From an uncultured Candidatus Saccharibacteria bacterium (lineage in GTDB: Bacteria; Patescibacteriota; Doudnabacteria; UBA920), in contig CAZACP010000002.1 in the NCBI GenBank assembly GCA_964483665.1, positions 33,171 to 97,170 of the forward strand: DNA of 64,000 bases. The letters are read 5' to 3'. The translations under genes were made by a program, and so were the position numbers. The notes beneath the pieces are model-generated. The model saw only the letters and a program-made list of their open reading frames with translations. It made no database searches and was not told the DNA's origin. This document shows, piece after piece, positions 35,833 through 55,189 of the stretch. Each line of letters starts with the position of its first letter. The first letter of the stretch is position 1.

Positions 35833-35942
35833 ATAAAATGACAAAAACGACGAAAATGAGCAAAAATGACAAAAATAGACTGCAATCTGCAGCAATATTT
35901 TTGTCATTTTTTTAATTTTTGTTCATTTTTGTCATTTAACCT
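35833..35942. promoter_or_regulatory. Highly palindromic intergenic element between pilB and pilC
   Basis: aaatgacaaaaa ... ctgcaatctgcag ... tttttgtcattt. The near-perfect dyad symmetry spans about 90 nt. Confidence 0.5.
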
Positions 35943-37154
35943 ATGGAATTCTCCTACGAAGCCATTGCAAAAGACGGGCACAGGGAAACTGCTACCATAA
36001 CGGCGGCTGACTCTGCCGCAGCCGGACATATGCTAAAAGAGCAGGGGCTTATACCAGTGGAAATAAAAGAAAAAGGCGCGGGCAATAATATTCTCGATAC
36101 GTTAAGAAAGTTTTCTACTATTTCTTTGGCGGAAAAAATCGGCTTTGTTGAAAATTTGCATATTATGTATAAAGCCGGCATTGCCTTGCCAAGAGCTTTG
36201 CAGATTTTGGTCAAGCAAAGTAAAAATTTAAGGTTTAAATTGGTTTTAACCGACATTTATAACCAAGTTCAATCGGGTAAATATTTGTCTGAAGCCTTGG
36301 AATCTCATTCTGAAGTTTTTTCCAATATTTTTTTAAGCATGGTAAGAGTGGGGGAAATGTCCGGCAGTTTAGAAAAGAGTCTTGAATATTTAAGCATTCA
36401 GCTTAAAAGAGAAGCGGATCTTAAAAGCAAAACCAAAGGCGCAATGATATATCCTTCGGTTATAGTCGGCGCCATGCTAATAATCGGCGTATTAATGTCA
36501 ATTTTTGTTTTGCCAAAATTGACTTCTGTTTTTAAGGATTTTAGCACTGATCTGCCTTTTGCCACGGTTATGGTTATAAAATTTGCGGACTTTATGCAAG
36601 GTAATGCGGTTTTGGTTATTGGCATGATGGTAGCTATAGTTGTTGCCTTTGTGTATTTGCTTAAAACGTATGTGGGAAAAAAATATTTTGGGTTTTTAAT
36701 TCTTCATACTTTAGTCATTGGGGAAATAGTCAGAAAAGTCAATTTAGCCCGTTTTGCCCGCATATTAAGCTCGCTTTTAAAAAGCAGCGTGAATATGGTT
36801 CAGGCGCTGCAGGTTACCTCGGAATCTTTGGGAAATGTGGCTTACCGCGAAATTGTTGCTCAATCGGCTGAGACTGTAAAACTCGGGAAAAATTTAACCG
36901 AAAGCCTGAGCAAAGAGCCTAATTTATTTCCTATTTTGGTGGTGCAAATGCTGCAGGTGGGGGAGGAGAGCGGAACCATAGAAGAAATGCTAAACCAGTT
37001 GGCTGAACACTATGAAGACGAGGTGGATACCACTCTAAAAAACCTGTCTTCCATAATAGAACCTTTGCTGCTTTTGGTTATTGGCGGAGTGGTTGGGCTG
37101 CTTGCCATGGCATTAATTATGCCAATTTATAATATTGGTGCTAATATAAAGTAA
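35943..37154 (+). CDS. pilC: Type IV pilus inner-membrane platform protein PilC (GspF family)
   Basis: It has the two-repeat GspF architecture and 3 TM segments. Confidence 0.8.
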   Translation: MEFSYEAIAKDGHRETATITAADSAAAGHMLKEQGLIPVEIKEKGAGNNILDTLRKFSTISLAEKIGFVENLHIMYKAGIALPRALQILVKQSKNLRFKLVLTDIYNQVQSGKYLSEALESHSEVFSNIFLSMVRVGEMSGSLEKSLEYLSIQLKREADLKSKTKGAMIYPSVIVGAMLIIGVLMSIFVLPKLTSVFKDFSTDLPFATVMVIKFADFMQGNAVLVIGMMVAIVVAFVYLLKTYVGKKYFGFLILHTLVIGEIVRKVNLARFARILSSLLKSSVNMVQALQVTSESLGNVAYREIVAQSAETVKLGKNLTESLSKEPNLFPILVVQMLQVGEESGTIEEMLNQLAEHYEDEVDTTLKNLSSIIEPLLLLVIGGVVGLLAMALIMPIYNIGANIK

Positions 37155-41931: not shown

Positions 41932-42984
41932 ATGAATAACAAGATGCTTAAAATTGCAGCGAGCGCTGCAATTTCCGCCGGACTTATTTTTCCGGCATTT
42001 TCAGCATTAGCTGTTACATCCCAAGAATTACAAGGAAAAATATTGGGCATTCAGACTTCAATGAAAGAACAGTCTGAATCGTACAAAAAAGAAATGGAAC
42101 AGAAGCGCGAAGAGCTTAAAGATTTAATGGAAGCCAAGGCTGAATCTTATAAGAAGGAAATGGAAAGCAAGCGAGAAGAGTTAAAGAAGTTGTCGGAAGA
42201 AAAAAAAGAAGCTTTGAAAAAAGAAGCCGAAAGCAAGAGAGAAGAGCTGAAGAAGAAAGCGGAAGAACAGAAAGAGGCTTTAAAAATTTGTAAGCAGCAG
42301 AATAAAGATGTAAATGAAGATTATTCTGAAGCTGCCAAAGTTGCCAGGGAAGTTCGCTCGGAAGCGTTAAAAAAAGCCAGGGAGACCAGGCAGACTGAGT
42401 TAAAAACTGCTTTAGAAACAAGAAAAGCGGCTCGCGCCCAGGTAATTGGCACTAGTACCACCACTAACAGTACCTTAAAAGCCACAAGAAACGCTGCTAT
42501 TGAAACTGCTAAGAATACCAGAAAAACTGAAATTGAAGCCGCTAAAACCGTACTTAATAATGTATTAAATGCAAGTTCAACCCCGGAAAGCATTGCCGCT
42601 GCTAAGGTTGCTTACGAAGCTGCGGTTAAAGCTGCGAACCAAAAGTACGAAGCTGCGGTAAAAGCGGCTAATGAAGCCTATAAAGCAGCTGCAGGCACAA
42701 GCGCAGATTCTTATAAAGAAGCAATGAAAGATGCTAACGAAGCATATGCGGAGGCGGTTAAAGCGGCTAATGAAAAATATAATGCTGCGGTAAAAGCGGC
42801 TAATGAAGCCTATAAAGCAGCTACAAAAACAGCCGGCGAAACTAGAAAGTCAAATATAAAAAATTGCACAACCTCGGGAAATTCAACTTCTACACCTCCC
42901 TCTACAACCCCGACACCTACGCCGACTCCTTCGCCCACAGTCACTCCAACTCCAACCCCTACAGCCACCCCGACCCCCACCTAA
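41932..42984 (+). CDS. Secreted repetitive protein (signal peptide, coiled-coil repeats, AAVKAANEAYKAA repeats, C-terminal Pro/Thr-rich tail)
   Basis: The signal peptide MNNKMLKIAASAAISAGLIFPAFSALA is present. Tandem repeats at the DNA level span 42060-42300 and 42600-42830. The C-terminal tail reads TPTPTPTPSPTVTPTPTPTATPTPT. Confidence 0.6.
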   Translation: MNNKMLKIAASAAISAGLIFPAFSALAVTSQELQGKILGIQTSMKEQSESYKKEMEQKREELKDLMEAKAESYKKEMESKREELKKLSEEKKEALKKEAESKREELKKKAEEQKEALKICKQQNKDVNEDYSEAAKVAREVRSEALKKARETRQTELKTALETRKAARAQVIGTSTTTNSTLKATRNAAIETAKNTRKTEIEAAKTVLNNVLNASSTPESIAAAKVAYEAAVKAANQKYEAAVKAANEAYKAAAGTSADSYKEAMKDANEAYAEAVKAANEKYNAAVKAANEAYKAATKTAGETRKSNIKNCTTSGNSTSTPPSTTPTPTPTPSPTVTPTPTPTATPTPT

Positions 42985-43929: not shown

Positions 43930-44808
43930 ATGAATTGGATTCTATTTTCAATTTTAGCGGCGTTCGTTTGGGCTTTGGGGAATGTCTTAGACAAATACAT
44001 ATTTAACAAATGGATTAAAGAGCCTAACGTAGCGCTTCTGTTTTTCGGATTCTTTGGGCTAATATCGAGCTTGATAGTTTTTTGGTATAGCGGATTTACT
44101 TATTTAAACTTCCATCAATTAACAACAGTAGGTTTAGTAGGGTTCGTATATGTTGTGGCCTGCAAGCTCTATTATACAGCGTTAAAGAGCGGCGAGGTGT
44201 CTGTTGTTGTGCCGTTAATTTATTTGGATCCTCTATTTACAGCAATGTTTGCTGGAATTTTTATAAACGAATTATTCCCAGCCTATAAATATATTGGCGT
44301 ATGTCTTATAGTTTTCGGTGCCATGTTAATTTCATTCAAAGATGCTGGTAGCCTTAAGTTGAATAAAGCAGTTGGGCTGGCTGTACTCTCGGCAATTTTT
44401 TTCGGTGCATATAATGTAATTCTAAAAAGTTTACTCAGTGAGATGAACTTTTGGAAGGTATTCGCATATGTCCGTTTTTCAACGTTCGTGTTTTTAATAC
44501 CTTTATATTTTGTTTACTTTAAACAGATGGTTATGATTTTAAAACAACCTAAAGCATTTAGTGTGGTGGGGGTTAGTAACGTGTTTAGTTTTACCGGAAT
44601 ATTGTTTTATACTCTTGCTACATCTTTAACTTTTATAACATTCACTTCCACACTTACGGCATTACAGCCTTTTTTTGTTTTAATGATTACTTTGTTTTTA
44701 AGCATTTTTGCGCCAAAAATATTTAAGGAAGAAACCAGTCGTCGCCATTTTGTGCAAAAGGTCGCGGCTGTGGTTTTGATGTTTGTTGGAATATATTTAA
44801 CAAGTTAA
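43930..44808 (+). CDS. EamA/DMT-family transporter
   Basis: It has 10 TM segments and the EamA-like N-terminus ILFSILAAFVWALGNVLDK. Confidence 0.65.
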   Translation: MNWILFSILAAFVWALGNVLDKYIFNKWIKEPNVALLFFGFFGLISSLIVFWYSGFTYLNFHQLTTVGLVGFVYVVACKLYYTALKSGEVSVVVPLIYLDPLFTAMFAGIFINELFPAYKYIGVCLIVFGAMLISFKDAGSLKLNKAVGLAVLSAIFFGAYNVILKSLLSEMNFWKVFAYVRFSTFVFLIPLYFVYFKQMVMILKQPKAFSVVGVSNVFSFTGILFYTLATSLTFITFTSTLTALQPFFVLMITLFLSIFAPKIFKEETSRRHFVQKVAAVVLMFVGIYLTS

Positions 44809-44813
44809 AAACT

Positions 44814-45200
44814 ATGATGGTTAAAAATTTAGGTAAAATAGAAATAGTTACAGCTATCTTAATATTGCTTTTAGTTATGTGGAATGCTAAGTTAGCCGCC
44901 TTTTTAGCTGTTGTTGCTTTATTAATTTTTGGGTTTTTAAGATATAAAAATAGCCGGGCGGATGATTTAGAAGGCAATGTTTTAAACCCGCAGGCTATAA
45001 AACAGAGGCGCGAGAATTTAGACAAAATTATGCAGCTTGCGGCTATACACCCGCGTTTGACCAATAACATAGTTGAGCAAAACCTAAAAGTTTCCGACGC
45101 TACCGCAACCAGGTATTTAACCTATCTTGCTAACTTAGGAAACTTAGTCCGTATAAACGACAGGGGTAGGGAAGTGTACTACCAATTACCCAAAAAATAA
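44814..45200 (+). CDS. Hypothetical membrane-anchored protein with a C-terminal winged-helix-like domain
   Basis: One TM pair is followed by LTNNIVEQNLKVSDATATRYLTYLANLGNLVRIND. Confidence 0.4.
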   Translation: MMVKNLGKIEIVTAILILLLVMWNAKLAAFLAVVALLIFGFLRYKNSRADDLEGNVLNPQAIKQRRENLDKIMQLAAIHPRLTNNIVEQNLKVSDATATRYLTYLANLGNLVRINDRGREVYYQLPKK

Positions 45201-45339
45201 GGCTTTTTAAAGGCTCACTCGGAGTGAGCCTTTAAAGTCGATTGCCTTTTACTTTAGTGTACTAGTACGGTGATACACAAAAAAAGAGACAGCGCCAAGG
45301 AATTGCTTCCAAGGCGCTTTTGGGGGTTGGTGGACGAGC

Positions 45340-45630
45340 TTACGCGGCCCTTGCCGTTGCGTCCAGGCAACAGGCAAATGTGCTAAAGGGGACGCACATT
45401 CCTTCCACTTTGGAAGAGAGCCCTAGGACAGGGCTCCATCTACTAAAATAGACTTGGGTTGCTGTTTTCGACCACTCTCGTCTATTTAGGCAATTGGCCA
45501 ACTCTTCCATTCTGTGTACGTGTGGCGTTCCCTCGTCGTCCTGTGGGATGAACTCCGTTCTTGTCTGGTTTAGGAAGTGCCCTTCGGGCCCTTCCACAAT
45601 ATAGCCTTCAACGTGTGTGGGGCGCGACAT
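45340..45630 (-). CDS. Hypothetical protein on a GC-rich islet (may alternatively be a structured RNA)
   Basis: A GGAG RBS lies 7 nt upstream of the ATG at 45630. However, the GC-rich context makes long spurious ORFs likely, and extensive hairpins are present. Confidence 0.25.
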   Translation of the reverse strand: MSRPTHVEGYIVEGPEGHFLNQTRTEFIPQDDEGTPHVHRMEELANCLNRREWSKTATQVYFSRWSPVLGLSSKVEGMCVPFSTFACCLDATARAA

Positions 45631-45828
45631 AGTTTCTCCTGTGTGTTGTACTTATAGGCATTTTAACAGGTTATTTAACTAGATGGTAGATTATTAGATA
45701 ATAGAATTATCCACAACCCAGTACCTTGCATAAAAAGGTAGCGAGTGCTATACTTCAGTTAGCGAATAGAGAATAGTGCCTAGAGACAAGAAAAGCACAA
45801 AGAAAATTTATTATTCAAACACAATTTT

Positions 45829-46185
45829 ATGGAAAAGGAACAAGACATAGAAAATAGCAAAGCGCAAATGCGCAAGGGGATTTTAGAGTTTTGTATATTA
45901 CTCATTATTTCCAAAGAAGAGGTTTACCCTTCCGATATTTTAAAGGAGCTTAAAGAATTTGACTTAATTGTGGTGGAAGGTACGCTGTATCCGCTTTTAA
46001 GTAGGCTTAAGGACTATGGGCTTCTTGAATATCGGTGGGAAGAAAGCAAATCAGGTCCCCCTAGAAAATACTACAAGCTTACTTTGGAGGGTAAGAAAGT
46101 TTTGAGCCAAATGGAAAAGAACTGGGCGGAACTTAGTAAAAGTATTCAAGCATTAATAAAAAAACACGGAGGGAATGAGAAGTAA
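45829..46185 (+). CDS. PadR-family transcriptional regulator
   Basis: ILEFCILLIISKEEVYPSDILKEL...EGTLYPLLSRLKDYGLLEYRWEE...PRKYYKLT matches the family. Confidence 0.8.
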   Translation: MEKEQDIENSKAQMRKGILEFCILLIISKEEVYPSDILKELKEFDLIVVEGTLYPLLSRLKDYGLLEYRWEESKSGPPRKYYKLTLEGKKVLSQMEKNWAELSKSIQALIKKHGGNEK

Positions 46186-46301
46186 GAATGGGATAAAATA
46201 AATTTACCATTCCGAAAGCAGTGAGGAATCCCTTTTATAAGTTTTAAGGGATCCTTCGCTCCGCTCTGGATGGTAACATAACATCAATTAATTAAAATAA
46301 T

Positions 46302-48152
46302 ATGAACAAAACAATATCAATTAACTTAGGCGGCAGAAACTTTTTTATAGAAGAAGATGCCTATAAAAAACTGGACGAATATTTAAAAGCCATAAAATTG
46401 CGTTTTGCAGAATACGCGGGAAGCGAGGAAATTGTGGCAGATATGGAAAGCAGAATCGGTGAAAAGTTTACAGACAAGTACGAGGGCAAGACACAGGCGG
46501 TTATAACTTTGGGCGATGTAGACAGCCTGATTTTAGAACTTGGCAGCGTGGACGACATTGCGGGCGACGACCCTTCGACAAGCTCAGGACCTAGCGGGGT
46601 CGAGAGAAGGAATAATAACTATAATAACGACAAAACATCATTCGCGCCTAAACGGCTTATGCGTAATGGGGAAGACAAAATTATTGCCGGCGTTGCTTCG
46701 GGGTTAGCCGCGTATTTTGACGTAGACCCGATTATTTTTAGGGCTCTATTTGTAATTTTGCTGTTTGCCTGGGGAACTATGATCCCTATTTATTTGGTTT
46801 TATGGCTTATAATGCCTGAGGCTAAAACTCTCACTGAAAAAATGCAAATGCGCGGCCAGGCGCTAAATTTAGACAACATAGGCGAAACCATAAAAGAGAG
46901 GGCAGAGGAATTTAAGGCTCACATTAACGGGGTAAAAAACAAAGAAGAGTGGAAAGAATGGGGCAAGAAGGCAAAAGCGGATGTAAAAGCCGTGGGGGAA
47001 GACATAAAACAAAGCGCGCAAAGTATGGGACGGGAAGCGGGCGAAGTTAGTAAAAAAAAAGCCCAAGGGCTAGCTAATTTTTTGCGCCAAATTTTTCAGG
47101 GTTTAGGAAGGCTAATTGCCTTTGTATTTATACTGCTTCGCAGAGTAGTCAGCTTTGCGTTAATTGCGGCGTTTGGTCTTGCCATAGCCGGCCTGACTCT
47201 GGCTTTTGTTACCGCAGTTTTTAATGTAACTTCGCCTTACGTATTTTTGCCCATTGCCGGCATAGCACATACGGCGCCGTTCTATGTTTTGCTTATAGCC
47301 GCGTATGTTTTGGCTTTTGTGCCCATTTTGCTTTTACTGCTTTTGGCAGTCAGCCTGTTTAACCTTAAGTCCGCGTTTAAGCCGGCTTTGGGCTTTAGCT
47401 TGTTTGGGGTTTGGGTCATAGCTTTGGCAATAGGCGGAGCGGTAGGTGCCCGCTATGCGCCTGCCTATGTGGAGCAAATAAAAAACAGCCCCGAGCTTAA
47501 AACTACAACTAAAAGTTTTAATGTTAGCGAATTTGAAAATTTAGATTTGGGAAGTTCGGTAGAGTACAGGCTTACGCAGGGGAGTGAATATAAAATTGAG
47601 GCAGAAGGCTGGAACATAGACCTAGAAAGGCTAAGCGCCAACGTTTCAAACAAAACATTGGTGGTGGAAAAAACAAATAAAAACTTTTGCATATTTTGCC
47701 TAAGCGGCAGGCCAAAAGTTACCATAACCGCGCCCGGCTTTGTTAATATTCGAGCGACCAACTCTTCTACCGTCAACTCCGAAGCTATTGTGGCCACCTC
47801 TACAACACTAAGCCTTGCCAACTCTTCCCGCGCGAACATTAATTTTACTGTTAGCGAGCTAATTTTAAATTTAAGCAATTCCAGTTCCGCGAATTTGTCC
47901 GGCAGCGCAAATTTAATGACCGCTAAGTTAAGCAACTCTTCGCGCCTTTATGGAGAAGATTTAAATATAAAAAACGCGGGTATTACCGCGTCTAACTCTT
48001 CGGTTGCCAATGTAAACGTGAGCGAAAAGTTATACTACAATACTTCTAACTCCAGCCGGATTTATTACACCGGCAGTCCGCAAATAATTACTGAACAAGA
48101 AGAAAGTTTCAAATTGCCGAAAATTCCCGAAACTCCAATAATAATAAATTAA
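46302..48152 (+). CDS. PspC-domain membrane protein with a C-terminal DUF4097/DUF2807 beta-helix (putative adhesin-like) region
   Basis: The PspC domain reads EDKIIAGVASGLAAYFDVDPIIFRALFVILLFAWGTMIPIYLVLWLIMP. The C-terminal repeats read NSSRANINF...NSSSANLSGSANLM...NSSVANVNVS. Confidence 0.7.
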   Translation: MNKTISINLGGRNFFIEEDAYKKLDEYLKAIKLRFAEYAGSEEIVADMESRIGEKFTDKYEGKTQAVITLGDVDSLILELGSVDDIAGDDPSTSSGPSGVERRNNNYNNDKTSFAPKRLMRNGEDKIIAGVASGLAAYFDVDPIIFRALFVILLFAWGTMIPIYLVLWLIMPEAKTLTEKMQMRGQALNLDNIGETIKERAEEFKAHINGVKNKEEWKEWGKKAKADVKAVGEDIKQSAQSMGREAGEVSKKKAQGLANFLRQIFQGLGRLIAFVFILLRRVVSFALIAAFGLAIAGLTLAFVTAVFNVTSPYVFLPIAGIAHTAPFYVLLIAAYVLAFVPILLLLLLAVSLFNLKSAFKPALGFSLFGVWVIALAIGGAVGARYAPAYVEQIKNSPELKTTTKSFNVSEFENLDLGSSVEYRLTQGSEYKIEAEGWNIDLERLSANVSNKTLVVEKTNKNFCIFCLSGRPKVTITAPGFVNIRATNSSTVNSEAIVATSTTLSLANSSRANINFTVSELILNLSNSSSANLSGSANLMTAKLSNSSRLYGEDLNIKNAGITASNSSVANVNVSEKLYYNTSNSSRIYYTGSPQIITEQEESFKLPKIPETPIIIN

Positions 48153-48165
48153 AATGAATACAGCG
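48039..48165. repeat. Direct repeat copy 1 (3' end of the PspC-domain gene plus its terminator hairpin)
   Basis: About 90% identical to 48705-48829. Confidence 0.75.
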
Positions 48166-48209
48166 TGCTCGTAACTGGTACGAGCGCGCTGTAGAAAGCG
48201 TTTTGGGAG

Positions 48210-48599
48210 TCATGCTCCCTTTGCCACCAAAATGTCAATGAACTCACCAATCGTGGCTGTAGGCTCCATGTCTGGCAAGAAAACCATGTTGCGGTTGGAC
48301 GTCCACAAAATCTTCGCAAGCAGAATATTATATTCAAGCTGATTGGTGATATACCGCTGCAGAGGTTGTGCATCGGCAATTTCTTCGATGCTGACTTTGC
48401 ATGTCGAAGATATAAATCTGTATATCGCCTTTGCAATCCGGAATTCCGGCTTCTCATCACACAGCTGCTGTTCGGCAATCTGCCAGTTTGCTAGCTGGTC
48501 CGGATTTGTAGACTCGAGCCAAACCTGCATTGCCCGCATGCGGATTATTTCCACCCGCTGTTTTTCCCTTGGAAGGCTTTCGAATTCAATTGTCATCTG
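48210..48599 (-). CDS. Hypothetical protein (about 130 aa) on a GC-rich insert
   Basis: ATG at 48599 (MTIEFESLPREKQ...). It is the lower-coordinate part of the track ORF 48210..49148. No family recognised. Confidence 0.35.
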   Translation of the reverse strand, partial: QMTIEFESLPREKQRVEIIRMRAMQVWLESTNPDQLANWQIAEQQLCDEKPEFRIAKAIYRFISSTCKVSIEEIADAQPLQRYITNQLEYNILLAKILWTSNRNMVFLPDMEPTATIGEFIDILVAKGA

Positions 48600-48704
48600 C
48601 TCCTCCAGTTTGTTGGCCAAGCACAGGCCTTGTGCGCCGCGGGTTCTGCCGTGGCTCAGTTTGGTAAGTAAGTTATTGTAGTAAAAACGTCTAAAAAAAT
48701 CAAT

Positions 48705-48829
48705 AATACTTCCAACTCCAGCCGGGTTTACTACACCGGTAGCCCGGAAATAATTACAGAAGAAGAAAGTTTCAAATTGCCGGAAATTCCCGAAACGCCA
48801 ATAATAATAAATTAAAATGAATACAGCGC
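48705..48829. repeat. Direct repeat copy 2 (orphan duplicate of the gene 3' end; encodes ...SNSSRVYYTGSPEIITEEESFKLPEIPETPIIIN*)
   Basis: Aligned by eye to copy 1. It carries a 3-nt in-frame deletion and about 10 substitutions, and is followed by its own GC-rich hairpin. Confidence 0.75.
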
Positions 48830-48876
48830 GCTGCCTTGGGGGCGGCGCGCTGTTATGGCGAGTCGTCGAGCGGTGC

Positions 48877-49215
48877 TTAGGCTGCCTTGTACCAGATGAA
48901 GACACTTGACAGCTGGAGGCGCTGAACTGGTTCTTCGGGGACAGCTTTGTCATTCCCGGATCCGTCGCCGGGGTCAAATGTCGCAGGTATGATGAACGCG
49001 ACCTCTTCAACCCATGCCCGTTTACGCAGGATGGCTCGTGCGATGCTTTTCGAACTGTGCACGTAACAGGCCGCCAGTTCCGGCCTGTCGATCCATCGGG
49101 GTCTGCGAAGCTCGCCCTTTTTGTTCCAGCGGCTTCCGCTGAGAGCAATTACTTCGCCGTTGTCGCGTATTTTCAGTACAATGATGTAGCCACGAACCGG
49201 TTTGGCTGTTGGCAT
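48877..49215 (-). CDS. Hypothetical protein (112 aa) on a GC-rich insert
   Basis: ATG at 49215 (MPTAKPVRGYIIVLKIRDNGEVIALSG...). No family recognised. Confidence 0.3.
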   Translation of the reverse strand: MPTAKPVRGYIIVLKIRDNGEVIALSGSRWNKKGELRRPRWIDRPELAACYVHSSKSIARAILRKRAWVEEVAFIIPATFDPGDGSGNDKAVPEEPVQRLQLSSVFIWYKAA

Positions 49216-49368
49216 ATGTCTTCCTTTTCTTTGTATTCTGCCGTATTTGGTTGTTCACCAAGCAGGCAGTTAGAAAATTTTATCAAATATAAGCAGAAAA
49301 AGCAATGCGTTAGTGTTTAGATTCCGGATAAATTTTGTTGCTAAAAATTTTCCGGAATGACACAAACA

Positions 49369-49402
49369 AAAATCCCCTTGAGGATTATTCTCAAGGGGAT
49401 TT
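49369..49402 (-). terminator. Rho-independent terminator of typA
   Basis: Perfect hairpin aatccccttgag/ctcaaggggatt with a T-run on the minus strand. Confidence 0.6.
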
Positions 49403-49442
49403 AATATATGTTTTGTTCTCGACAAGCTCGAACAATATTGCT

Positions 49443-51278
49443 TTACCTCTTAGCTCTTTTTCGTTCGGTTGCGGAAAGGATTTTTTTGCGGATGCGAATA
49501 GAAAGGGGAGTTACTTCCAAAAGTTCGTCGGGCCCTATATATTCCATAGCAAAGTCTAAGGTGATTGGCCTAGGCGGGGTTAGAATTATGGCATCATCTG
49601 CACCGCTTGAGCGCATATTGGTTAACTTTTTGGTCTTGGTAACGTTAAGCTCTAAGTCAGTGTCAACCGCGTTTTGACCAACTACCATACCTTCGTAAAC
49701 TTCTACGGCCGGGCCTATAAACATAGTACCGCGTTCTTGAGCGTTGTTAAGGCCGTAAGCGTTAGAAACGCCCGCCTCGCTGGCTATAAGCGAGCCGTGG
49801 TCAGAAACATGTTCGTCAATGTCGTGCGCGGGTTTATAGCTATCAAACAAATTGTTTACAACCGCAGTACCGCGGGTTCTGGTTAACAGTAAATTTTTTA
49901 AACCAATTAAACCACGGGTTGGTATTAAATATTCCGCGTGAAGTTCGCCGCCCGGAGTGGTGTCCATATGCTGAAGTTCTCCGCCACGTTTGCCCATTTC
50001 TTCTATTACCACGCCCTGGTATTCGCTAGGTATGTCTATAGTACAAATTTCGTAAGGCTCATGTTTTACGCCATCAACCTGGTGGTAAATAACCTGAGGC
50101 TGCGAAACCTGCAGTTCAAAACCTTCTCTGCGCATTGTTTCAATTAAAATGCCTAAGTGCAGTTCGCCGCGGCCTGAAACCAAAAAGCTCTCGGCGCCTT
50201 CTTCCGAAGGGTCAACTTTTAAAGCCACGTTGGTTTCCAGTTCCTTGTAAAGCCGTTCGCGCAAATTTCTGGAAGTGACAAATTTTCCTTCCCGGCCGGC
50301 AAAAGGGGAAGTGTTAACGCCAAAAGTCATTTTTATGGTCGGCGGTTCTATTTCCACAGGCGGCAAGGCAACCGGATTTTGAGGGTCGGTTAAAACGTCG
50401 CCAATATGAATGTCGTCAAAACCGGCTATGGCAACAATGTCGCCGGCTTCCGCTGTTTCTACGTCTATTTGCTTTAAGCCCTGGTACATAGAAAGCGCGG
50501 TCACTCTGCCGGTTTCTTTTTCTCCGCTTTGTTTGGCGTGTAAAACATTTTCCGCTTTTTTAACTTTGCCGGAAACAATTTTGCCTATGCCCATTTTGCC
50601 TTTGTAATTGTCGGACATTAAGGCAAAAACCTGCATAGCAAAATTTTGGCCGTCAAAGACCGTGGGAGCCGGAATGTGTTTGACTATGGCTTCAAAAAGC
50701 GCGGTTAAGTCCGGCGGGGTGGATTCGTCGCTGACTTTTAAAAGCAGTTCTTCGGCGGATTCGCTGGCAAGCCCCCTTATGCCGGAAGCGTAAATAATAG
50801 GGAAGTCGAGCTGCAAATGTGTGGCGTTTAACTTTACAAACAAGTCAAAAGTTTTGTTTAAAGCTTCGTCTATGTTGGCGCCGGGTTTGTCTACCTTGTT
50901 TATAACCACAATCGCTCGGTGGCCTAAAGCCAAAGCTTTTTTTAGCACAAACTTGGTTTGAGGCATAGGGCCTTCTTTGGCGTCTACCAAAAGCAAAACG
51001 CCGTCCGCCATTTTTAGGGTGCGTTCTACTTCTCCGCCAAAATCCGCGTGACCGGGAGTGTCTACTATATTTATTTTGGTGTCCCCATACATCATAGAAG
51101 CGTTTTTAGCTTTTATGGTTATGCCGCGCTCTCTTTCTAAATCCATACTGTCCATAACTAAATCGGCCTGTTCGTCTTTTACAGTGTGAGTGGCTTTAAG
51201 CATTGCGTCTACCAGCGTAGTTTTTCCATGGTCGACGTGAGCTATAATGGCTATGTTTCTTAAGTTGTCTCTGGTCAT
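49443..51278 (-). CDS. typA: Translational GTPase TypA/BipA
   Basis: [18 protein letters not shown] (G1), [14 protein letters not shown] and NKVDKPGA are present. The protein is about 610 aa. Confidence 0.9.
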
Positions 51279-51466
51279 ATTTATACTGATTAACACTGAT
51301 TTTTACGGAAGGACACGGATTTAGTACAATCGTTGTAACTTTATTTCCGTGTAAATCTGTTTTTATTAATCTGTGTAGGTGTGTTTTTATTAATTCAACC
51401 TGCTAATAATACCAAAAATTTCATAAAAAGTCAATTATCTGATATAATATATTTATAATCAGTCGT

Positions 51467-52492
51467 ATGAAAACTTTAAAACAAAACCGTCAACTTATAG
51501 GTTTTTTTCTGTTACTTAGCATAACTTCTATAGTGGTTTTAATGATGCTTTTTCCGCTTTGGCAGATTTTGGCTTTGGCAGGAATTTTCGCGGTTATTTT
51601 TCACCCTTTATACGAAAGAATAAATAGGGGAATGGCTAGCCCAAATCTGGCTTCGGTTTTAACAATACTAATAATTATTTTAGTGGCGATTTTGCCTTTG
51701 TGGTTTATAGGCCAATTGCTGTTTAACGAAATTGTAGACGTTTATAACAAGTTTCGCTTTGGCGAGTTGGTGTTTAATCAGGCCGATTTTATAGCCCGCT
51801 TGCCCCAGCAAGTACAAAATATTTTGCAAAGTTTAAATAACGATATTAACGCCATAGTTTCCCGCTTTACCGGCAGTGCTTTTAACTTAGTCTCGGGCCT
51901 GCTTTCTAATTTGGCCAGTTTTTTCCTGTCTTTATTTTTACTTATCTTTATTCTATTTTTCTTTTTAAGAGACGGAAAAAAATTAAAGGATTTGGTTAAA
52001 GAGCTTTCGCCTTTGTCTGAAGCGTACGACTCGGTGTTAATGACTAAACTGGAAACCGCGGTCGGCGGAGTGCTTAAGGGTTCGTTTTTAATCGCCTTAA
52101 TTCAGGGAACGGTTGCGAGCGTGGGGTTTGTTATTTTTGGCGTACCTCAGCCCGTTTTATGGGGCGCTTTTACCGTGCTTACGGCTTTGGTGCCCACGGT
52201 CGGAACTTCTATTTCTTTAATTCCGGCTATTTTGTATTTGTTTTTTACCGGGCATACTGGAGCCGGCATAGGCATGGCCATTTGGGGAGCGGTGGCAGTA
52301 GGCGCCATAGACAACATAGTCGGTCCAAGGCTGGTGGGAGAGAAAATAAATTTACACCCGTTGTTGGTTTTGCTTTCAGTCTTAGGCGGCATCCAGCTGT
52401 TTGGTTTTTTGGGTTTTTTATTTGGCCCCATACTTATGTCGGTGTTTGTTGCGCTTTTAGACATTTATAGAAAGAATTTAAAAGCGCCTTAG
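51467..52492 (+). CDS. AI-2E family transporter (PerM/UPF0118)
   Basis: It has 8 TM segments and a typical length and hydrophobicity pattern. Confidence 0.65.
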   Translation: MKTLKQNRQLIGFFLLLSITSIVVLMMLFPLWQILALAGIFAVIFHPLYERINRGMASPNLASVLTILIIILVAILPLWFIGQLLFNEIVDVYNKFRFGELVFNQADFIARLPQQVQNILQSLNNDINAIVSRFTGSAFNLVSGLLSNLASFFLSLFLLIFILFFFLRDGKKLKDLVKELSPLSEAYDSVLMTKLETAVGGVLKGSFLIALIQGTVASVGFVIFGVPQPVLWGAFTVLTALVPTVGTSISLIPAILYLFFTGHTGAGIGMAIWGAVAVGAIDNIVGPRLVGEKINLHPLLVLLSVLGGIQLFGFLGFLFGPILMSVFVALLDIYRKNLKAP

Positions 52493-52505
52493 TCGAAATA
52501 TATTT

Positions 52506-52534
52506 TAAAAAGGCTTTTGTTAAAAGCCTTTTTT
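52506..52534 (+). terminator. Rho-independent terminator
   Basis: aaaaggctttt-gtt-aaaagcctttt followed by a T-run. Confidence 0.55.
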
Positions 52535-52563
52535 TATTTTTTGTGTTATTATAGTTATAAGTT

Positions 52564-54027
52564 ATGAAGAAATTTAGTTCCTTAAACTTGCCCGAAAATT
52601 TGCCTCCCACCATACTGACTATTTTTGGGGCTACCGGAGACCTTTCTGCCGACTATTTGTTGCCGGCGCTTTTGCGTATGGACAAGCAAAAACTTTTGCC
52701 CAAAACGTTTAAGCTGGTGTGCGTGGGCAGAAGGGAGCTGACTAATAAGACTTTTTTAGATTTTATAGTTAAAAAATCAGGCGTTGTAAAAAAACTTTCG
52801 CCTTCGGCAAAAAAAAGTTTTTTAAAGCACCTGGTCTACTTTCAGGGTGACTTTGAAAATCCGGAAAGCTTTAAAGCCCTTTCGGCAATTTTGGCAGACC
52901 AAGAAAAACCAAAGCACGCCTGCTATAACCGGCTTTTTTATTTTGCTACCAAACCCCAGCAATTTGCCGATTTGGCCCATATACTTAAGTCGCAGGGCCT
53001 GCTTATGGCTTGTGCTATACACAAGCGCCAGTCAAGAGTTTTGGTAGAAAAGCCGTTTGGTTTTAACTTAAAGTCTGCCCAGGCTTTAAACCAGCTGCTT
53101 TTGAAATATTTTAAGGAAGAACAAATTTACAGAATTGACCATTACGCGGGCAAGGAAACCGTACAGAATTTAATGGTTGTCAGGTTTGCTAACAGCCTTT
53201 TTGAGCCGTTGTGGAATAACCGGTTTATTGACCATGTGGAAATTTCTGTTTTGGAGAAAGACGGAATTCGCGGACGGGCGGAATACTATGACCAAACCGG
53301 CGCGGTAAAAGATTTTTTGCAAAATCACATTCTGCAAATGCTTGCCTTAATTGCCATGGACGAGCCTTACAATATGACGGCCGATTTAATCCGGGACCAG
53401 AAACTTTCGGTTTTAAAAGCCCTTGAGCCCTTTGAAAGTGCGAAAATGTCTGCCCGGGTGGTAAAAGGGCAGTATAAAGGTTATGCCAAAGACATAAAAG
53501 GTTCGAGCGAGACAGAAACCTATTTTGCCTTAAAGACTTATGTGAACCTGCCAAGGTGGGCAGGCGTGCCGTTTTATTTGCGCACCGGCAAAAGGCTTTC
53601 CAAAAAACTTACCCAAATTTCCATACATTTTAGAGAGCCTATTCGCTGTTTGTTTGAGGGCTGCGCGGAAAATGTTTTAACTTTTACCATTCAGCCTAAC
53701 GAGTCAGTGCATTTGCAAATTAACAACAAAATTCCGGGCTTTGGCGTTAAGCTGCACCAGGGCGATTTAGAGTTTGGCTACAAGCAGGCGTTTAAGGGAG
53801 AAATTCCTTCGGCTTACGAGCGCTTGCTTTTGGATTTTATGGAAGGCGATCAGCGTTTGTTTATTCGCAGTGACGAAATAGAGGCAGCTTGGAAATACGT
53901 GGACAGCATTTGCGAGAGCCCAAGTTTTAAAAAATTGCCTTTGTACGTTTATAAACCCGGCAGCAACGGGCCAAAAGAAGCGGAGAAGTTTATAGAGAAA
54001 GACGCGAAAACTTGGAGGACCAAGTAA
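52564..54027 (+). CDS. zwf: Glucose-6-phosphate 1-dehydrogenase
   Basis: The NADP site LTIFGATGDLSADYLLPAL and the signature RIDHYAGKETVQNL are present. Confidence 0.9.
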   Translation: MKKFSSLNLPENLPPTILTIFGATGDLSADYLLPALLRMDKQKLLPKTFKLVCVGRRELTNKTFLDFIVKKSGVVKKLSPSAKKSFLKHLVYFQGDFENPESFKALSAILADQEKPKHACYNRLFYFATKPQQFADLAHILKSQGLLMACAIHKRQSRVLVEKPFGFNLKSAQALNQLLLKYFKEEQIYRIDHYAGKETVQNLMVVRFANSLFEPLWNNRFIDHVEISVLEKDGIRGRAEYYDQTGAVKDFLQNHILQMLALIAMDEPYNMTADLIRDQKLSVLKALEPFESAKMSARVVKGQYKGYAKDIKGSSETETYFALKTYVNLPRWAGVPFYLRTGKRLSKKLTQISIHFREPIRCLFEGCAENVLTFTIQPNESVHLQINNKIPGFGVKLHQGDLEFGYKQAFKGEIPSAYERLLLDFMEGDQRLFIRSDEIEAAWKYVDSICESPSFKKLPLYVYKPGSNGPKEAEKFIEKDAKTWRTK

Positions 54028-54057
54028 ATATAAGATATAGGATGTAAGATATAAGAT

Positions 54058-54822
54058 ATGAAGAACAAAAACACATCGTGGGGTGGGGTTGCTAAGTGGT
54101 ATGAAAAAACGGTTTCAGATGACAGCAGTTATCAGAACACTGTTATTAAGCCGAATCTACTTAGGATACTAAACATTAGCAAGGGAGAAAATATACTTGA
54201 TGTTGCCTGCGGCAGCGGGTTTTTTGCGCGAGAGTTTTCTAAAGTAGGCGCTAAAGTTACGGGTTTGGATATTGGAGCGGAATTAGTTAAAATTGCCAAA
54301 CAGCAAGACCCTAAAGGCACATATTTAGTGGGCAATGCCGAGAAAATGAATAACATAGAAACTGGAAAATTTGATGTCGCGACTATTGTCCTTGCCTTGC
54401 AAAACATAAAAAATTTTCAAAATGCGCTTAGCGAAATAGCCCGGGTTTTAAAGCCGAACGGCAGATGCTTAGTAGTTTTAAACCACCCGGCTTTCCGCAT
54501 ACCGGGTAAAACCTCGTGGGAGTTTGATGAACAATCTAATATACAATATCGTCGAGTCGATGCGTATTTAAGCGAAGGCAGTAAGGCGATGGATATGCAC
54601 CCGGGCCGGAAAAAATCACAATTAACTTATTCTTTTCACCGCCCTTTGCAGGTTTATTTTAAAGCTTTTGCAAAACATAATCTTGCGGTAAAAAACTTGG
54701 AAGAGTGGATTTCGCCCAAACAAAGCGACAAAGGCTCGCGTAAATTAGCGGAAGACAAAGCACGCAAAGAGTTTCCATTGTTTATGTGTTTGGAGCTAAA
54801 AAAAACCGATGAACACCGATAA
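54058..54822 (+). CDS. Class I SAM-dependent methyltransferase
   Basis: Motif I ILDVACGSGFFAREF is present. Confidence 0.6.
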   Translation: MKNKNTSWGGVAKWYEKTVSDDSSYQNTVIKPNLLRILNISKGENILDVACGSGFFAREFSKVGAKVTGLDIGAELVKIAKQQDPKGTYLVGNAEKMNNIETGKFDVATIVLALQNIKNFQNALSEIARVLKPNGRCLVVLNHPAFRIPGKTSWEFDEQSNIQYRRVDAYLSEGSKAMDMHPGRKKSQLTYSFHRPLQVYFKAFAKHNLAVKNLEEWISPKQSDKGSRKLAEDKARKEFPLFMCLELKKTDEHR

Positions 54823-54909
54823 AGAAACAGATAATCACGGACTTATGGAATAAAGGTCGTAATTTTGGTCTGTGCTAATCCGTAAATATCCGCGTTAGTC
54901 TGTATATAA

Positions 54910-55152
54910 ATGAATATTGAGCAAGAAATTTTAGAAATTAAGGAGCGTAACGAAAAAGTGGAAAACGATAAAGCTTGGGAAATAAGCTTTGCGCGGAGAT
55001 TTTTTATTTCCGTCGTAACTTATATATTCGCTTTTTGGTGGCTGTTTATAATACAAGAGCCCAAAGCGTGGCTTAAAAGCTTTGTGCCGGTTATTGGGTA
55101 TGTTGTATCTACGCTTTCATTGCCAATAGTAAGAAAAATTTGGACAAAATAA
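54910..55152 (+). CDS. Small 2-TM membrane protein (hypothetical)
   Basis: ORF with two hydrophobic segments. Confidence 0.35.
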   Translation: MNIEQEILEIKERNEKVENDKAWEISFARRFFISVVTYIFAFWWLFIIQEPKAWLKSFVPVIGYVVSTLSLPIVRKIWTK

Positions 55153-55189
55153 ATATTCCAACATTCTGCAGAATGTTGGAATATTTTAA

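What the first reader, a model, noticed from the sequence alone, without database searches (positions are those of the whole stretch)
48039..49300. Tandem GC-rich mini-cassettes bracketed by a 125-bp duplicated gene 3' end (integration scar)
The last about 125 bp of the PspC/DUF4097 gene, including the stop codon and its terminator hairpin, recur about 90% identical 666 bp downstream. Each copy is followed by a GC-rich segment encoding one small minus-strand protein, at 48210-48599 and 48877-49215. The pattern is [repeat][cargo][repeat][cargo], which is what sequential site-specific integrations into the 3' end of a gene produce when each event regenerates the att site. No integrase is present. 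The cassettes may therefore be mobilised in trans or be relics. The cargo proteins have no recognised family; they could be toxin/antitoxin or immunity-like.
Basis: seen in the sequence. Interest (0 to 1): 0.65.

Follow-up and report, generated by a model that had tools for sequence, protein, structure and literature searches.

The report
Displaced gene-end scar in variable hotspot
The duplicated end of the PspC-like gene is real, but it is most likely a scar of ordinary recombination that stacked two strain-specific small genes in a variable spot between two core genes, not the footprint of an integrase-driven cassette system.

Summary
The last 114 nt of the PspC/DUF2807 gene plus 17 nt downstream (48039-48169) recur at 48705-48832 at 90% identity with one in-frame codon indel. 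The novel junction is identical in 8 independent assemblies. The integrase/att reading is not supported. The 64-kb window has no recombinase domain, no attC-type core sites and no third repeat. Four other occupied versions of the slot carry no tail duplication. PspC (+) and typA (-) are convergent core genes. Distant relatives have them 42 bp apart (empty site). Closer relatives carry different cargo there: a Swt1-HEPN gene, CapH/CapP-like genes, PemK, or unknown genes. Cargo 1 with hairpin H1 sits directly after PspC in a relative whose PspC is 74% identical. Cargo 2 with hairpin H2 sits directly after PspC in a ~96% relative. The relic tail encodes exactly the functional C-terminus of PspC in a sister strain. 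The two tails differ mostly synonymously (pN/pS 0.14), as much as alleles of different lineages do. So two alternative downstream modules were probably stacked by one homologous and one illegitimate crossover, as in C-terminal displacement at rhs and T6SS loci. Cargo functions remain unknown. Cargo 2 belongs to an uncharacterised ~105-aa family. Interest is modest.

The parts
45829..46185 (+). PadR-family regulator, first gene of the PadR-PspC pair (conserved left flank)
   Evidence: Pfam PF03551, E 8e-19. It has the same position in all relatives.
46302..48152 (+). PspC-domain / LiaI-LiaF-TM / DUF2807 (GIN) membrane protein, 616 aa. This is the conserved left flank whose 3' end is duplicated.
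   Evidence: Pfam PF04024, PF22571 and PF10988. It is identical to database protein P0147.
48039..48169 (+). Repeat copy c1. It holds the translated last 37 codons plus stop of PspC, a 9-nt spacer and the left arm of H1.
48159..48193 (.). Hairpin H1 between the convergent PspC and cargo 1 genes. On the minus strand it is followed by a U-rich run that the last PspC codons encode.
   Evidence: RNA fold gives -29.2 kcal/mol (z -6.7) on the + strand and -22.5 (z -6.0) on the - strand. A homologous hairpin occurs in L009.
48210..48596 (-). Cargo 1, 128 aa, predicted all-helical, no known family. The Shine-Dalgarno sequence GGAGGAG is at 48600-48606.
   Evidence: Only itself was found among 5.8 billion proteins. 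A gapless 52%-identical homolog over 128 aa lies in L009, with one in-frame TAA. pS is 0.62 and pN 0.43. The AF2 model has pLDDT 44 and is unusable.
48675..48703 (-). Promoter-like site for cargo 1 (TTGATT, 17 nt, TACAAT). The -35 hexamer lies on the junction bases.
   Evidence: The -10 region is conserved in L009.
48699..48704 (.). Novel (illegitimate) joint. Homology to L009's cargo 1 upstream region ends at 48698, and homology to the PspC tail starts at 48705.
   Evidence: The joint is identical in 8 assemblies.
48705..48832 (+). Repeat copy c2, the displaced and untranslated relic of a PspC 3' end. Its frame and stop codon are intact. No ATG, GTG or TTG start lies in frame after the upstream stop at 48669-48671.
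   Evidence: Its translation equals the C-terminus of PspC allele P0145 at 36 of 36 residues.
48823..48853 (.). Hairpin H2, the terminator-like hairpin of cargo 2. Its minus-strand U-rich run is supplied by the end of the relic c2.
   Evidence: RNA fold gives -30.3 kcal/mol (z -4.5) on the + strand and -23.4 (z -4.7) on the - strand. It is identical in L012.
48877..49215 (-). Cargo 2, 112 aa, 55.5% GC, a member of an uncharacterised ~105-aa family. The Shine-Dalgarno sequence AAGGAAG is at 49220-49226. An extended -10-like TGaTAAAAT lies at 49285-49277, with TTGCTT at 49305-49300.
   Evidence: HMMER search of representatives gave 16 hits, best 52% identity at E 6e-16. Alignment A2 shows conserved motifs. 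No Pfam, PHROG or PDB match. The protein is 100% identical in L012. The promoter and SD were read from the sequence.
49319..49402 (.). Right edge of the variable region. Homology to L007 resumes at 49319. An AT-rich palindrome lies at 49321-49358. The ancestral bidirectional terminator of typA and PspC lies at 49370-49402.
   Evidence: A hairpin of similar sequence (CCCCTYGAGG...) is the only thing between PspC and typA in L021.
49443..51278 (-). typA/bipA GTPase, the conserved right flank, convergent with PspC
   Evidence: Pfam families of the called gene

Best explanation
This is a recombination scar, a displaced gene end, in a strain-variable islet between two convergent core genes, the PadR-PspC pair and typA. 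Related strains carry alternative downstream modules at this spot. Two of them have become stacked in this population. Module 1 is tail c1, hairpin H1 and cargo 1. Module 2 is tail c2, hairpin H2 and cargo 2. Stacking needs one homologous exchange (in the PspC tail or body, or on the typA side) and one non-homologous joint (48699-48704). That is homology-facilitated illegitimate recombination with DNA from a related strain. An equivalent route is RecA-type insertion of a circularised fragment through the ~113-131-bp tail homology. One PspC end stayed on the gene. The other was pushed downstream and survives as an untranslated relic (c2). The relic still supplies the U-rich run of cargo 2's terminator. 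It also acts as a homology arm through which cargo 2 can be exchanged on its own. No dedicated integrase is involved. Shown: the anatomy, the alternative arrangements in relatives, a functional c2-type tail in a sister strain, selection-type divergence of the two tails, and the absence of a recombinase or att core. Inferred: the mechanism of the joint, the order of events, and DNA uptake by transformation. Cargo 1 and cargo 2 are independent monocistronic small genes of unknown function. From the defence and TA-type content of the same slot in relatives, they are most likely accessory conflict-related genes (low confidence).
For: (1) An empty site exists. L020 and L021 have the PspC stop, one hairpin and the typA stop within 42 bp. 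(2) The same slot holds unrelated cargo in other relatives: a 104-aa gene plus a Swt1-HEPN gene in L007/L008; a cargo 1 homolog plus PaaX-like, DinB, CapH/CapP-like and PemK genes in L009; a 449-aa gene in L018. None of these has a tail duplication. (3) Module 1 exists on its own. In L009 (PspC 74% aa identity) the PspC tail, an H1-like hairpin and a cargo 1 homolog are collinear, and homology ends at window 48698, 6 bp before c2. Cargo 1 has pS 0.62 against 0.61 for PspC. (4) Module 2 exists on its own. L012 has a PspC tail, H2, cargo 2 and typA with no cargo 1, and shows 0 differences to the window over 48792-49499. (5) The relic's translation is identical (36 of 36) to the functional C-terminus of PspC allele P0145, which is otherwise window-like. 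(6) c1 and c2 differ by 6 synonymous and 3 non-synonymous changes plus one whole-codon indel. pN/pS is 0.14, and P is 0.004 against neutrality. Their pS of 0.26 matches the window-versus-L007 PspC value of 0.19-0.22. They therefore diverged as translated alleles in separate lineages, not as a duplicate decaying in place. (7) Mosaic tracts are present. L012 equals the window at 47449-47852 and 48792-49499, and equals L007 at 47886-48134 and over most of 50669-55174. P0149 has an L007-like N-terminal half and a window-like C-terminal half. PilB, PilC and ALS proteins are identical between the window genome and the L007 contig. (8) No recombinase or transposase domain occurs in any called gene of the 64-kb window. 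No GTTRRRY cores lie at module borders. No third tail copy exists. [quoted passage not shown]
Against: The parent sequence on one side of the joint was not seen, so microhomology at 48699-48704 cannot be assessed. The order of events cannot be resolved: cargo 1 may have been added in front of cargo 2, or cargo 2 added behind cargo 1. P0145 and L012 could also be deletion derivatives of the tandem rather than precursors. The mosaic contigs (L012, P0145, P0149) come from metagenome assemblies and could in part be strain chimeras. H1, H2 and the L009 hairpin share the outer stem CAGCGCGCTG, which could mark a specific site. A recombinase encoded elsewhere in the genome cannot be excluded. Natural competence of this organism is not shown; only type IV pilus genes lie in the window.
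Confidence: 0.6

Rival explanations
1. Small circular cassettes, each carrying an att site that mimics the PspC 3' end, were integrated one after another by a site-specific recombinase encoded elsewhere. Each event regenerated the gene end.
For: Direct repeats of the gene's 3' end bracket the 666-bp cargo 1 segment. Empty and single-module sites exist in relatives. An element-borne gene end would also evolve under selection, so the synonymous bias does not exclude this model. The hairpins share outer stems. The slot is a hotspot with varied cargo.
Against: The 64-kb window has no recombinase. No third repeat follows cargo 2. Other occupied alleles have no tail duplication, and their left borders differ: L007 diverges at the stop codon, whereas c1 and c2 diverge inside the hairpin. 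The cargo 1 module co-diverged with PspC in L009, which has no downstream repeat. The cargo proteins are absent from phage, plasmid and viral collections. The CAGCGCGCTG motif is not dispersed in the window.
Confidence: 0.12
2. An in-place tandem duplication of the tail, hairpin and small gene occurred in an ancestor. The duplicate then decayed, and one of the two small genes was replaced.
For: c1 and c2 share three derived bases against the L012/L007 tail (48114, 48125, 48128). This is weak support for the two copies being each other's closest relatives.
Against: Cargo 1 and cargo 2 show no similarity (hhalign E 0.45). The untranslated copy c2 carries fewer private changes (2-3) than the translated copy (6-7), and the differences are mostly synonymous. 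That is the opposite of what a decaying relic would show. A c2-type tail is a functional gene end in P0145. Each module occurs alone in relatives.
Confidence: 0.06
3. The tandem is ancestral in this species group. The single-module strains (L012, P0145) arose from it by deletion between the 131-bp direct repeats or by replacement. On this view the window shows the old state rather than a new stacking event.
For: Direct repeats at 90% identity can recombine. L012's crossover maps to the last ~24 bp of the tail. L012's backbone is L007-like, so it is itself a recombinant.
Against: This model still needs the same kind of stacking event earlier, so it changes only timing and direction. A relic kept through a pS of 0.26 without a frameshift or stop codon is unlikely.
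Confidence: 0.15
4. The arrangement is an assembly artefact: a chimeric join of two co-occurring strains.
For: Some contigs break at the repeat. L013 starts at window position 48799.
Against: The junction joins non-homologous sequence, so a graph switch inside a repeat cannot create it. It is identical in 8 contigs from 8 samples and three assembly pipelines.
Confidence: 0.02

Closest known systems
C-terminal displacement at rhs loci (Jackson et al. 2009, PMC2935791) and orphan arrays at Vibrio cholerae T6SS effector-immunity loci (Kirchberger et al. 2017, PMC5361080)
   Same: A new gene end with its linked downstream gene is brought in by recombination anchored in the conserved part of the upstream gene. 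The old end is pushed downstream as a start-less fragment that forms a direct repeat of the conserved part. Each copy is followed by different cargo. The alternative ends are functional in other strains. No integrase is involved, and the proposed mechanisms are homologous recombination with circular intermediates or HFIR.
   Different: Here the displaced piece is a 37-codon tail that stays 90% conserved, not a variable toxin domain. The linked small genes are convergent with the main gene, not co-oriented immunity genes. The main gene is an envelope-stress-type PspC/DUF2807 protein, not a polymorphic toxin. Only one displacement is seen.
Minimal mobile elements of Neisseria (Saunders & Snyder; recalled from own knowledge, and the term occurs in the papers listed)
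   Same: A slot lies between two conserved genes, and different strains carry different whole-gene cargo in it. The cargo has no mobility genes of its own and is exchanged by homologous recombination in the flanks.
   Different: Minimal mobile elements normally replace one another and leave no duplicated gene end. Competence is established in Neisseria but not in this organism.
Homology-facilitated illegitimate recombination in naturally transformable bacteria (de Vries & Wackernagel 2002; Prudhomme et al. 2002; Meier & Wackernagel 2003; cited through PMC5361080, and in the abstract of PMC3240628)
   Same: One end of the incoming DNA recombines homologously and the other joins illegitimately. 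This adds foreign DNA next to the anchor.
   Different: That process was demonstrated experimentally, with joints at short microhomologies. Here it is only inferred from the product, and one parent of the joint is unknown.
Integrase-mediated islands and integron cassettes
   Same: Direct repeats that include a gene's 3' end, stacked single-gene units, and a hairpin after each unit.
   Different: There is no integrase and no attC core sites. Each unit has its own promoter-like site and Shine-Dalgarno sequence. There is no terminal repeat, and other insertions at the same slot are not duplicated.

Membership tests
Integrative element targeting a gene 3' end (att-regenerating) | Tyrosine or serine recombinase gene in or next to the element | tested here: not met
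   No recombinase or transposase Pfam domain in any called gene across the 64-kb window. A few genes have no Pfam hit at all.
Integrative element targeting a gene 3' end (att-regenerating) | Each inserted unit is flanked by attL and attR direct repeats | tested here: not met
   The cargo 1 segment is flanked by c1 and c2. Cargo 2 has no repeat on its far side: the best local score of 17 is below the shuffle mean of 19.
Integrative element targeting a gene 3' end (att-regenerating) | Independent insertions use the same att boundaries | tested here: not met
   L007/L008, L009, L018 and L012 carry other cargo in the slot with no tail duplication. Their left borders differ.
Integrative element targeting a gene 3' end (att-regenerating) | Empty site in relatives | tested here: met
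   In L020 and L021, PspC and typA are 42 bp apart. L012 lacks cargo 1.
Integrative element targeting a gene 3' end (att-regenerating) | Excised circular form or precise excision | not testable with these tools
   This needs raw reads of the samples.
Integron gene cassette array | intI integrase with attI and Pc upstream | tested here: not met
   No integrase in the window.
Integron gene cassette array | attC hairpin with R''/R' core sites (RYYYAAC / GTTRRRY) at each cassette end | tested here: not met
   The only GTTRRRY in 48000-49400 is at 48294-48300, inside the cargo 1 coding sequence. H1 and H2 form near-continuous stems (one G-U pair or mismatch each) without the bulged bases typical of attC.
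Integron gene cassette array | Promoterless, co-oriented cassettes | tested here: not met
   The units are co-oriented, but each has its own Shine-Dalgarno sequence and promoter-like site.
C-terminal displacement / orphan-fragment arrays (rhs, CDI, T6SS) | A start-less partial copy of the upstream gene's 3' part lies downstream as a direct repeat, with different cargo after each copy | tested here: met
C-terminal displacement / orphan-fragment arrays (rhs, CDI, T6SS) | The displaced end is the functional end of the gene in other strains | tested here: met
   P0145 ends with the exact translation of c2.
C-terminal displacement / orphan-fragment arrays (rhs, CDI, T6SS) | Variable toxic C-terminal domain followed by a cognate co-oriented immunity gene | tested here: not met
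   The tail is 37 aa, 90% conserved and has no domain. The cargo genes are convergent with PspC. No toxin or immunity family was found. The locus works like these systems but is not a polymorphic toxin locus.
Minimal mobile element / flank-mediated islet exchange | Conserved flanking genes with different cargo between them in different strains, and no mobility genes | tested here: met
   Seven arrangements of the PspC-typA interval.
Minimal mobile element / flank-mediated islet exchange | Exchange by homologous recombination in the flanks | tested here: inconclusive
   Sharp mosaic tracts are seen. They come from metagenome contigs that could be partly strain chimeras.
Homology-facilitated illegitimate recombination | Illegitimate joint at a short microhomology opposite a homologous anchor | tested here: inconclusive
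   The joint is located to 48699-48704. One parental sequence is unknown.

The most novel reading that the evidence does not exclude
The PspC tail plus its GC-rich hairpin may be a dedicated, reusable docking site at which single-gene modules are captured and stacked. Each module would carry a copy of the tail and a hairpin with the shared CAGCGCGCTG stem. The recombinase would be encoded elsewhere or be a host function. That would be an integron-like gene-capture system in a small-genome, probably Patescibacteria-type bacterium that has no recognisable integrase.
Probability: 0.07. Interest if true: 0.65.

Novelty: new member of a known kind. Interest (0 to 1): 0.3.

Why it matters
The locus is a clean natural example, outside toxin loci, of accessory genes being added to a small, element-poor genome without any mobile-element machinery. 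The genes pile up between two convergent core genes through exchange with sister strains, and the displaced gene end records the event. It also gives a practical caution: a duplicated gene 3' end with cargo in between is not by itself evidence for an integrase. The work defines a variable slot that holds defence and TA-type genes in relatives. It also defines an uncharacterised ~105-aa protein family, with two divergent copies flanking the PadR-PspC pair, that could be tested for function.

Tried and rejected
(1) Family searches for both cargo proteins in Pfam, NCBIfam, PHROGs and PADLOC found nothing significant. The only near hit was Csn2 at E 6e-4 over a helical stretch, which I treat as noise.

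(2) Word-indexed homology searches found only the proteins themselves.

(3) Single-sequence AlphaFold2 gave pLDDT 44 and 48. That is too poor for fold search, so none was run.

(4) A profile of the cargo 2 family found nothing credible against PDB sequences, Pfam or PHROGs.

(5) tblastn of both cargo proteins against the phage and plasmid collections found nothing, and a viral-contig scan for cargo 1 found nothing. The family alignment was too divergent for a locus scan.

(6) A genome-contig scan with PspC found no relative. Scans with a degenerate tail DNA pattern in metagenome contigs and genome contigs returned only chance hits, a serpin gene and a Dehalococcoidales contig.

(7) Rfam found no family above threshold in 44000-52000.

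(8) I tested whether cargo 2 is a conserved partner of PspC. Family members in L025 and L026 have no PspC-like neighbour, so the idea is rejected.

(9) I tested whether L007's 104-aa gene in the same slot belongs to the cargo 2 family. It aligns collinearly but not significantly (E 0.033, probability 1.5%), so this is left open.

(10) An apparent difference at the PadR-PspC junction in L002 is only a run of N.

(11) Xer/dif-type exploitation (IMEX, pdif modules) was considered. The repeat is 131 bp of coding sequence rather than a 28-bp dif-like site. This was not tested formally because the organism's dif site is unknown. 

(12) The organism's taxonomy could not be established, because the cluster look-ups carry no organism names.


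Full report
**1. The observation**

The window is AT-rich (37.7% GC). Around the finding it encodes PadR (45829-46185, +), a 616-aa PspC / LiaI-LiaF-TM / DUF2807 protein (46302-48152, +) and typA (49443-51278, -). So PspC and typA are convergent.

The last 114 nt of PspC, including the stop codon, plus the next 17 nt (48039-48169, 'c1') recur at 48705-48832 ('c2'). Identity is 90%, with one 3-bp in-frame indel. After a divergent stretch, a further 9 nt (GCGCGCTGT) is shared. That stretch is the right arm of a hairpin.

Both copies are followed by a strong hairpin: H1 at 48159-48193 and H2 at 48823-48853. Fold energies are -29 and -30 kcal/mol, and no shuffle folds as well. The hairpins share only their outer stem.

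Behind each hairpin lies a small minus-strand gene:
- Cargo 1 is 48210-48596, 128 aa.
- Cargo 2 is 48877-49215, 112 aa.

Each has a Shine-Dalgarno sequence and a promoter-like site. No third tail copy follows cargo 2. The exact junction sequence is present in 8 independent contigs from 8 samples and three assembly pipelines. The arrangement is therefore real.

**2. What relatives show**

Homologs of PspC and their contigs give seven versions of the PspC-typA interval.

| Locus | Relation to the window | Content of the interval |
|---|---|---|
| L020, L021 | PspC 54-57% aa identity | One hairpin; the two stop codons are 42 bp apart (empty site) |
| L018 | PspC 56% aa identity | A 449-aa gene between two similar hairpins |
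| L009 | PspC 74% aa identity | PspC tail, H1-like hairpin, full-length cargo 1 homolog, then PaaX-like, DinB, CapH/CapP-like and PemK genes |
| L007, L008 | 93% DNA identity | A 104-aa minus-strand gene and a Swt1-HEPN gene (PADLOC candidate PDC-M34B) |
| L012 | ~96% DNA identity | PspC tail, H2, cargo 2, typA; no cargo 1 |
| Window | - | Both modules in tandem |

The cargo 1 homolog in L009 is 52% identical over 128 aa, gapless, with one in-frame TAA.

Homology between the window and L007 breaks right after the PspC stop codon and resumes at 49319, just before the typA terminator at 49370-49402. A similar terminator sequence is the only element present in the empty site of L021. None of the other occupied versions has a second copy of the tail.

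**3. The two tails are alleles, not a decaying duplicate**

- c1 and c2 differ by 6 synonymous changes, 3 non-synonymous changes and one whole-codon indel. The relic keeps its frame and stop codon.
- pN/pS is 0.14. The excess of synonymous changes has P = 0.004.
- Their synonymous distance (0.26) equals that between the PspC genes of the window and L007 (0.19-0.22).
- The untranslated copy c2 has fewer private changes than the translated copy c1.
- Most directly, database allele P0145 is a full-length, otherwise window-like PspC whose C-terminus is exactly the translation of c2, 36 of 36 residues.

So c2 was, or still is in a sister strain, a working gene end.

**4. The modules have separate histories**

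Cargo 1 with H1 is collinear with PspC in L009. Homology stops at window position 48698, six bases before c2 begins at 48705. Its synonymous divergence from L009 (0.62) matches that of PspC (0.61). Its protein evolves fast (pN 0.43).

Cargo 2 with H2 is 100% identical between the window and L012 over 48792-49499.

The window therefore carries two modules side by side that occur singly elsewhere. They are joined at a non-homologous joint at 48699-48704.

**5. Recombination is pervasive here**

Site-by-site comparison shows sharp mosaics.
- L012 equals the window at 47449-47852 and 48792-49499.
- L012 equals L007 at 47886-48134 and over most of 50669-55174.
- L012's switch from an L007-type tail to window-type H2 maps to the last ~24 nt of the tail. 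This shows the tail can serve as a homology arm for moving cargo 2 alone.
- PspC allele P0149 has an L007-like N-terminal half and a window-like C-terminal half with a c1-type tail.
- Several proteins (PilB, PilC, ALS) are identical between the window's genome and the L007 contig, although the PspC region differs by 7%.

One caveat applies. These are metagenome contigs, and some mosaics could be strain chimeras. The tandem itself cannot be one, because its joint links non-homologous sequence.

**6. Tests of the integrase/att model**

- No recombinase or transposase domain occurs in any called gene of the window.
- No attC-type core sites lie at the module borders.
- The hairpin motif CAGCGCGCTG occurs only in these hairpins within the window.
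- No Rfam family matches.
- The cargo proteins have no matches in phages, plasmids or viral contigs.
- There is no terminal repeat.
- Other insertions at the slot show no duplication.

Taken together, the defining features of an att-regenerating integrative element and of an integron are not met. The exceptions are the presence of an empty site and of one repeat pair.

**7. Most likely mechanism**

DNA from a related strain recombined at this locus with one homologous crossover and one illegitimate joint. The homologous crossover was either in PspC, if module 1 was added in front of module 2, or on the typA side, if module 2 was added behind module 1. An equivalent route is insertion of a circularised fragment through the tail homology.

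The result keeps PspC intact and pushes the other tail downstream as a start-less relic. No ATG, GTG or TTG lies in frame after the stop at 48669-48671.

This is the pattern described as C-terminal displacement at rhs loci, attributed there to homologous recombination with circular intermediates (PMC2935791). It is also the pattern of sequential displacement at V. cholerae T6SS clusters, attributed to homology-facilitated illegitimate recombination (PMC5361080).

The differences from those systems are these. The displaced piece is a short conserved tail, not a toxin domain. The linked genes are convergent, not co-oriented immunity genes. So the locus works like those systems but is not a polymorphic-toxin locus.

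A functional detail can be read from the sequence. On the minus strand, the U-rich run after H1 and H2 is encoded by the last PspC codons (…CCAATAATAATAAATTAAAATGAAT). The end of the tail therefore forms part of each cargo gene's terminator. This may be why the tail end, hairpin and cargo travel together. That last point is inference.

Transformation is plausible but unproven. Type IV pilus genes lie in the window. Natural competence with homologous integration has been shown for Saccharibacteria (abstracts of PMC10633639 and PMC10187176). The taxonomy of this organism could not be established. Its small-genome relatives include a single 1.21-Mb contig, and the nearest named PspC relative is Ca. 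Falkowbacteria at 29% identity. These only suggest a Patescibacteria-type organism.

**8. The cargo**

Cargo 1 is predicted helical at low confidence and is restricted to this clade. Cargo 2 belongs to an uncharacterised family of ~105-aa proteins with the motifs GYIIV, ALSR, W, ECFVHS, RAI, W..EA and ATYNP. The family has no Pfam, PHROG or PDB match.

A second, very divergent member of the family is the 96-aa minus-strand ORF at 45340-45630, just upstream of PadR (hhalign probability 90.5%, E 1.3e-6). Family members elsewhere are not next to PspC.

Function is unknown. Relatives carry HEPN, CapH/CapP-like and PemK genes in the slot. On that basis the best guess is an accessory, conflict-related role, at low confidence.

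**9. Verdict**

Its mechanistic core (an integrase, and regeneration of an att site by sequential site-specific events) is not supported.

The best explanation is a displacement scar from homologous plus illegitimate recombination (confidence about 0.6). This is a new member of a known kind and of modest interest.

Noticed in passing
window 45340-45630 (-); L007 7098-7391 (-): A 96-aa, GC-rich (53%) minus-strand ORF between orf128 and PadR is a probable distant homolog of the cargo 2 family (hhalign probability 90.5%, E 1.3e-6, 91 columns). The PadR-PspC pair is therefore flanked on both sides by divergent members of one uncharacterised small-protein family, both antisense to the pair.
   Followed up: partly
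window 49321-49358: An AT-rich imperfect palindrome (ATTCCGGATAAATTTT ... AAAAATTTTCCGGAAT, 14 of 16 pairs) sits exactly at the right edge of the variable region. It is 100% conserved in L007 and L012 and absent from L009, L020 and L021. It could be an operator, a second terminator or a recombination-related site.
   Followed up: no
L009 3471-3521 and 4232-4282: Two 51-nt direct repeats (88% identical) flank the PaaX-like gene in the L009 version of the slot. Each contains an inverted repeat (ATTATGTGGGAAAA ... TTTTCCCACATAAT).
   Followed up: no
L018 7806-7833 and 9256-9283: The 449-aa gene that fills the slot in L018 is bracketed by two similar terminator-like hairpins (TTAAAAACCCCGC...GCGGGGTTT). 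This echoes the shared outer stems of H1 and H2 in the window.
   Followed up: no
L009 2947-3330 (-): The cargo 1 homolog in L009 aligns gaplessly over all 128 codons but has a single in-frame TAA at codon 74. It is a recent pseudogene or a sequencing error.
   Followed up: partly
L007 9910-10224 (-): The 104-aa gene in the same slot and orientation as cargo 2 shows weak collinear similarity to cargo 2 (BLASTP E 0.006), to orf96 (E 0.003) and to the family profile (hhalign E 0.033). It may be a very divergent member of the same family. This is not established.
   Followed up: partly
window 34075-37154 and 14093-15889 versus the L007 contig: PilB, PilC and an acetolactate-synthase-like protein are 100% identical between the window's genome and the 151-kb contig of L007, although the PspC-typA region differs by about 7%. 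This indicates genome-wide patchy exchange between these lineages.
   Followed up: no
window 42600-42825 (+), inside ORF 41932-42984: An internal tandem-like coding repeat (about 33 and 99 nt periods, Ala/Lys/Glu-rich) lies in a 350-aa protein with no Pfam match.
   Followed up: no
window 1-33000: A long, lower-GC (30-36%) cluster of glycosyltransferase, sugar-nucleotide and polysaccharide-export genes occupies half of the window.
   Followed up: no
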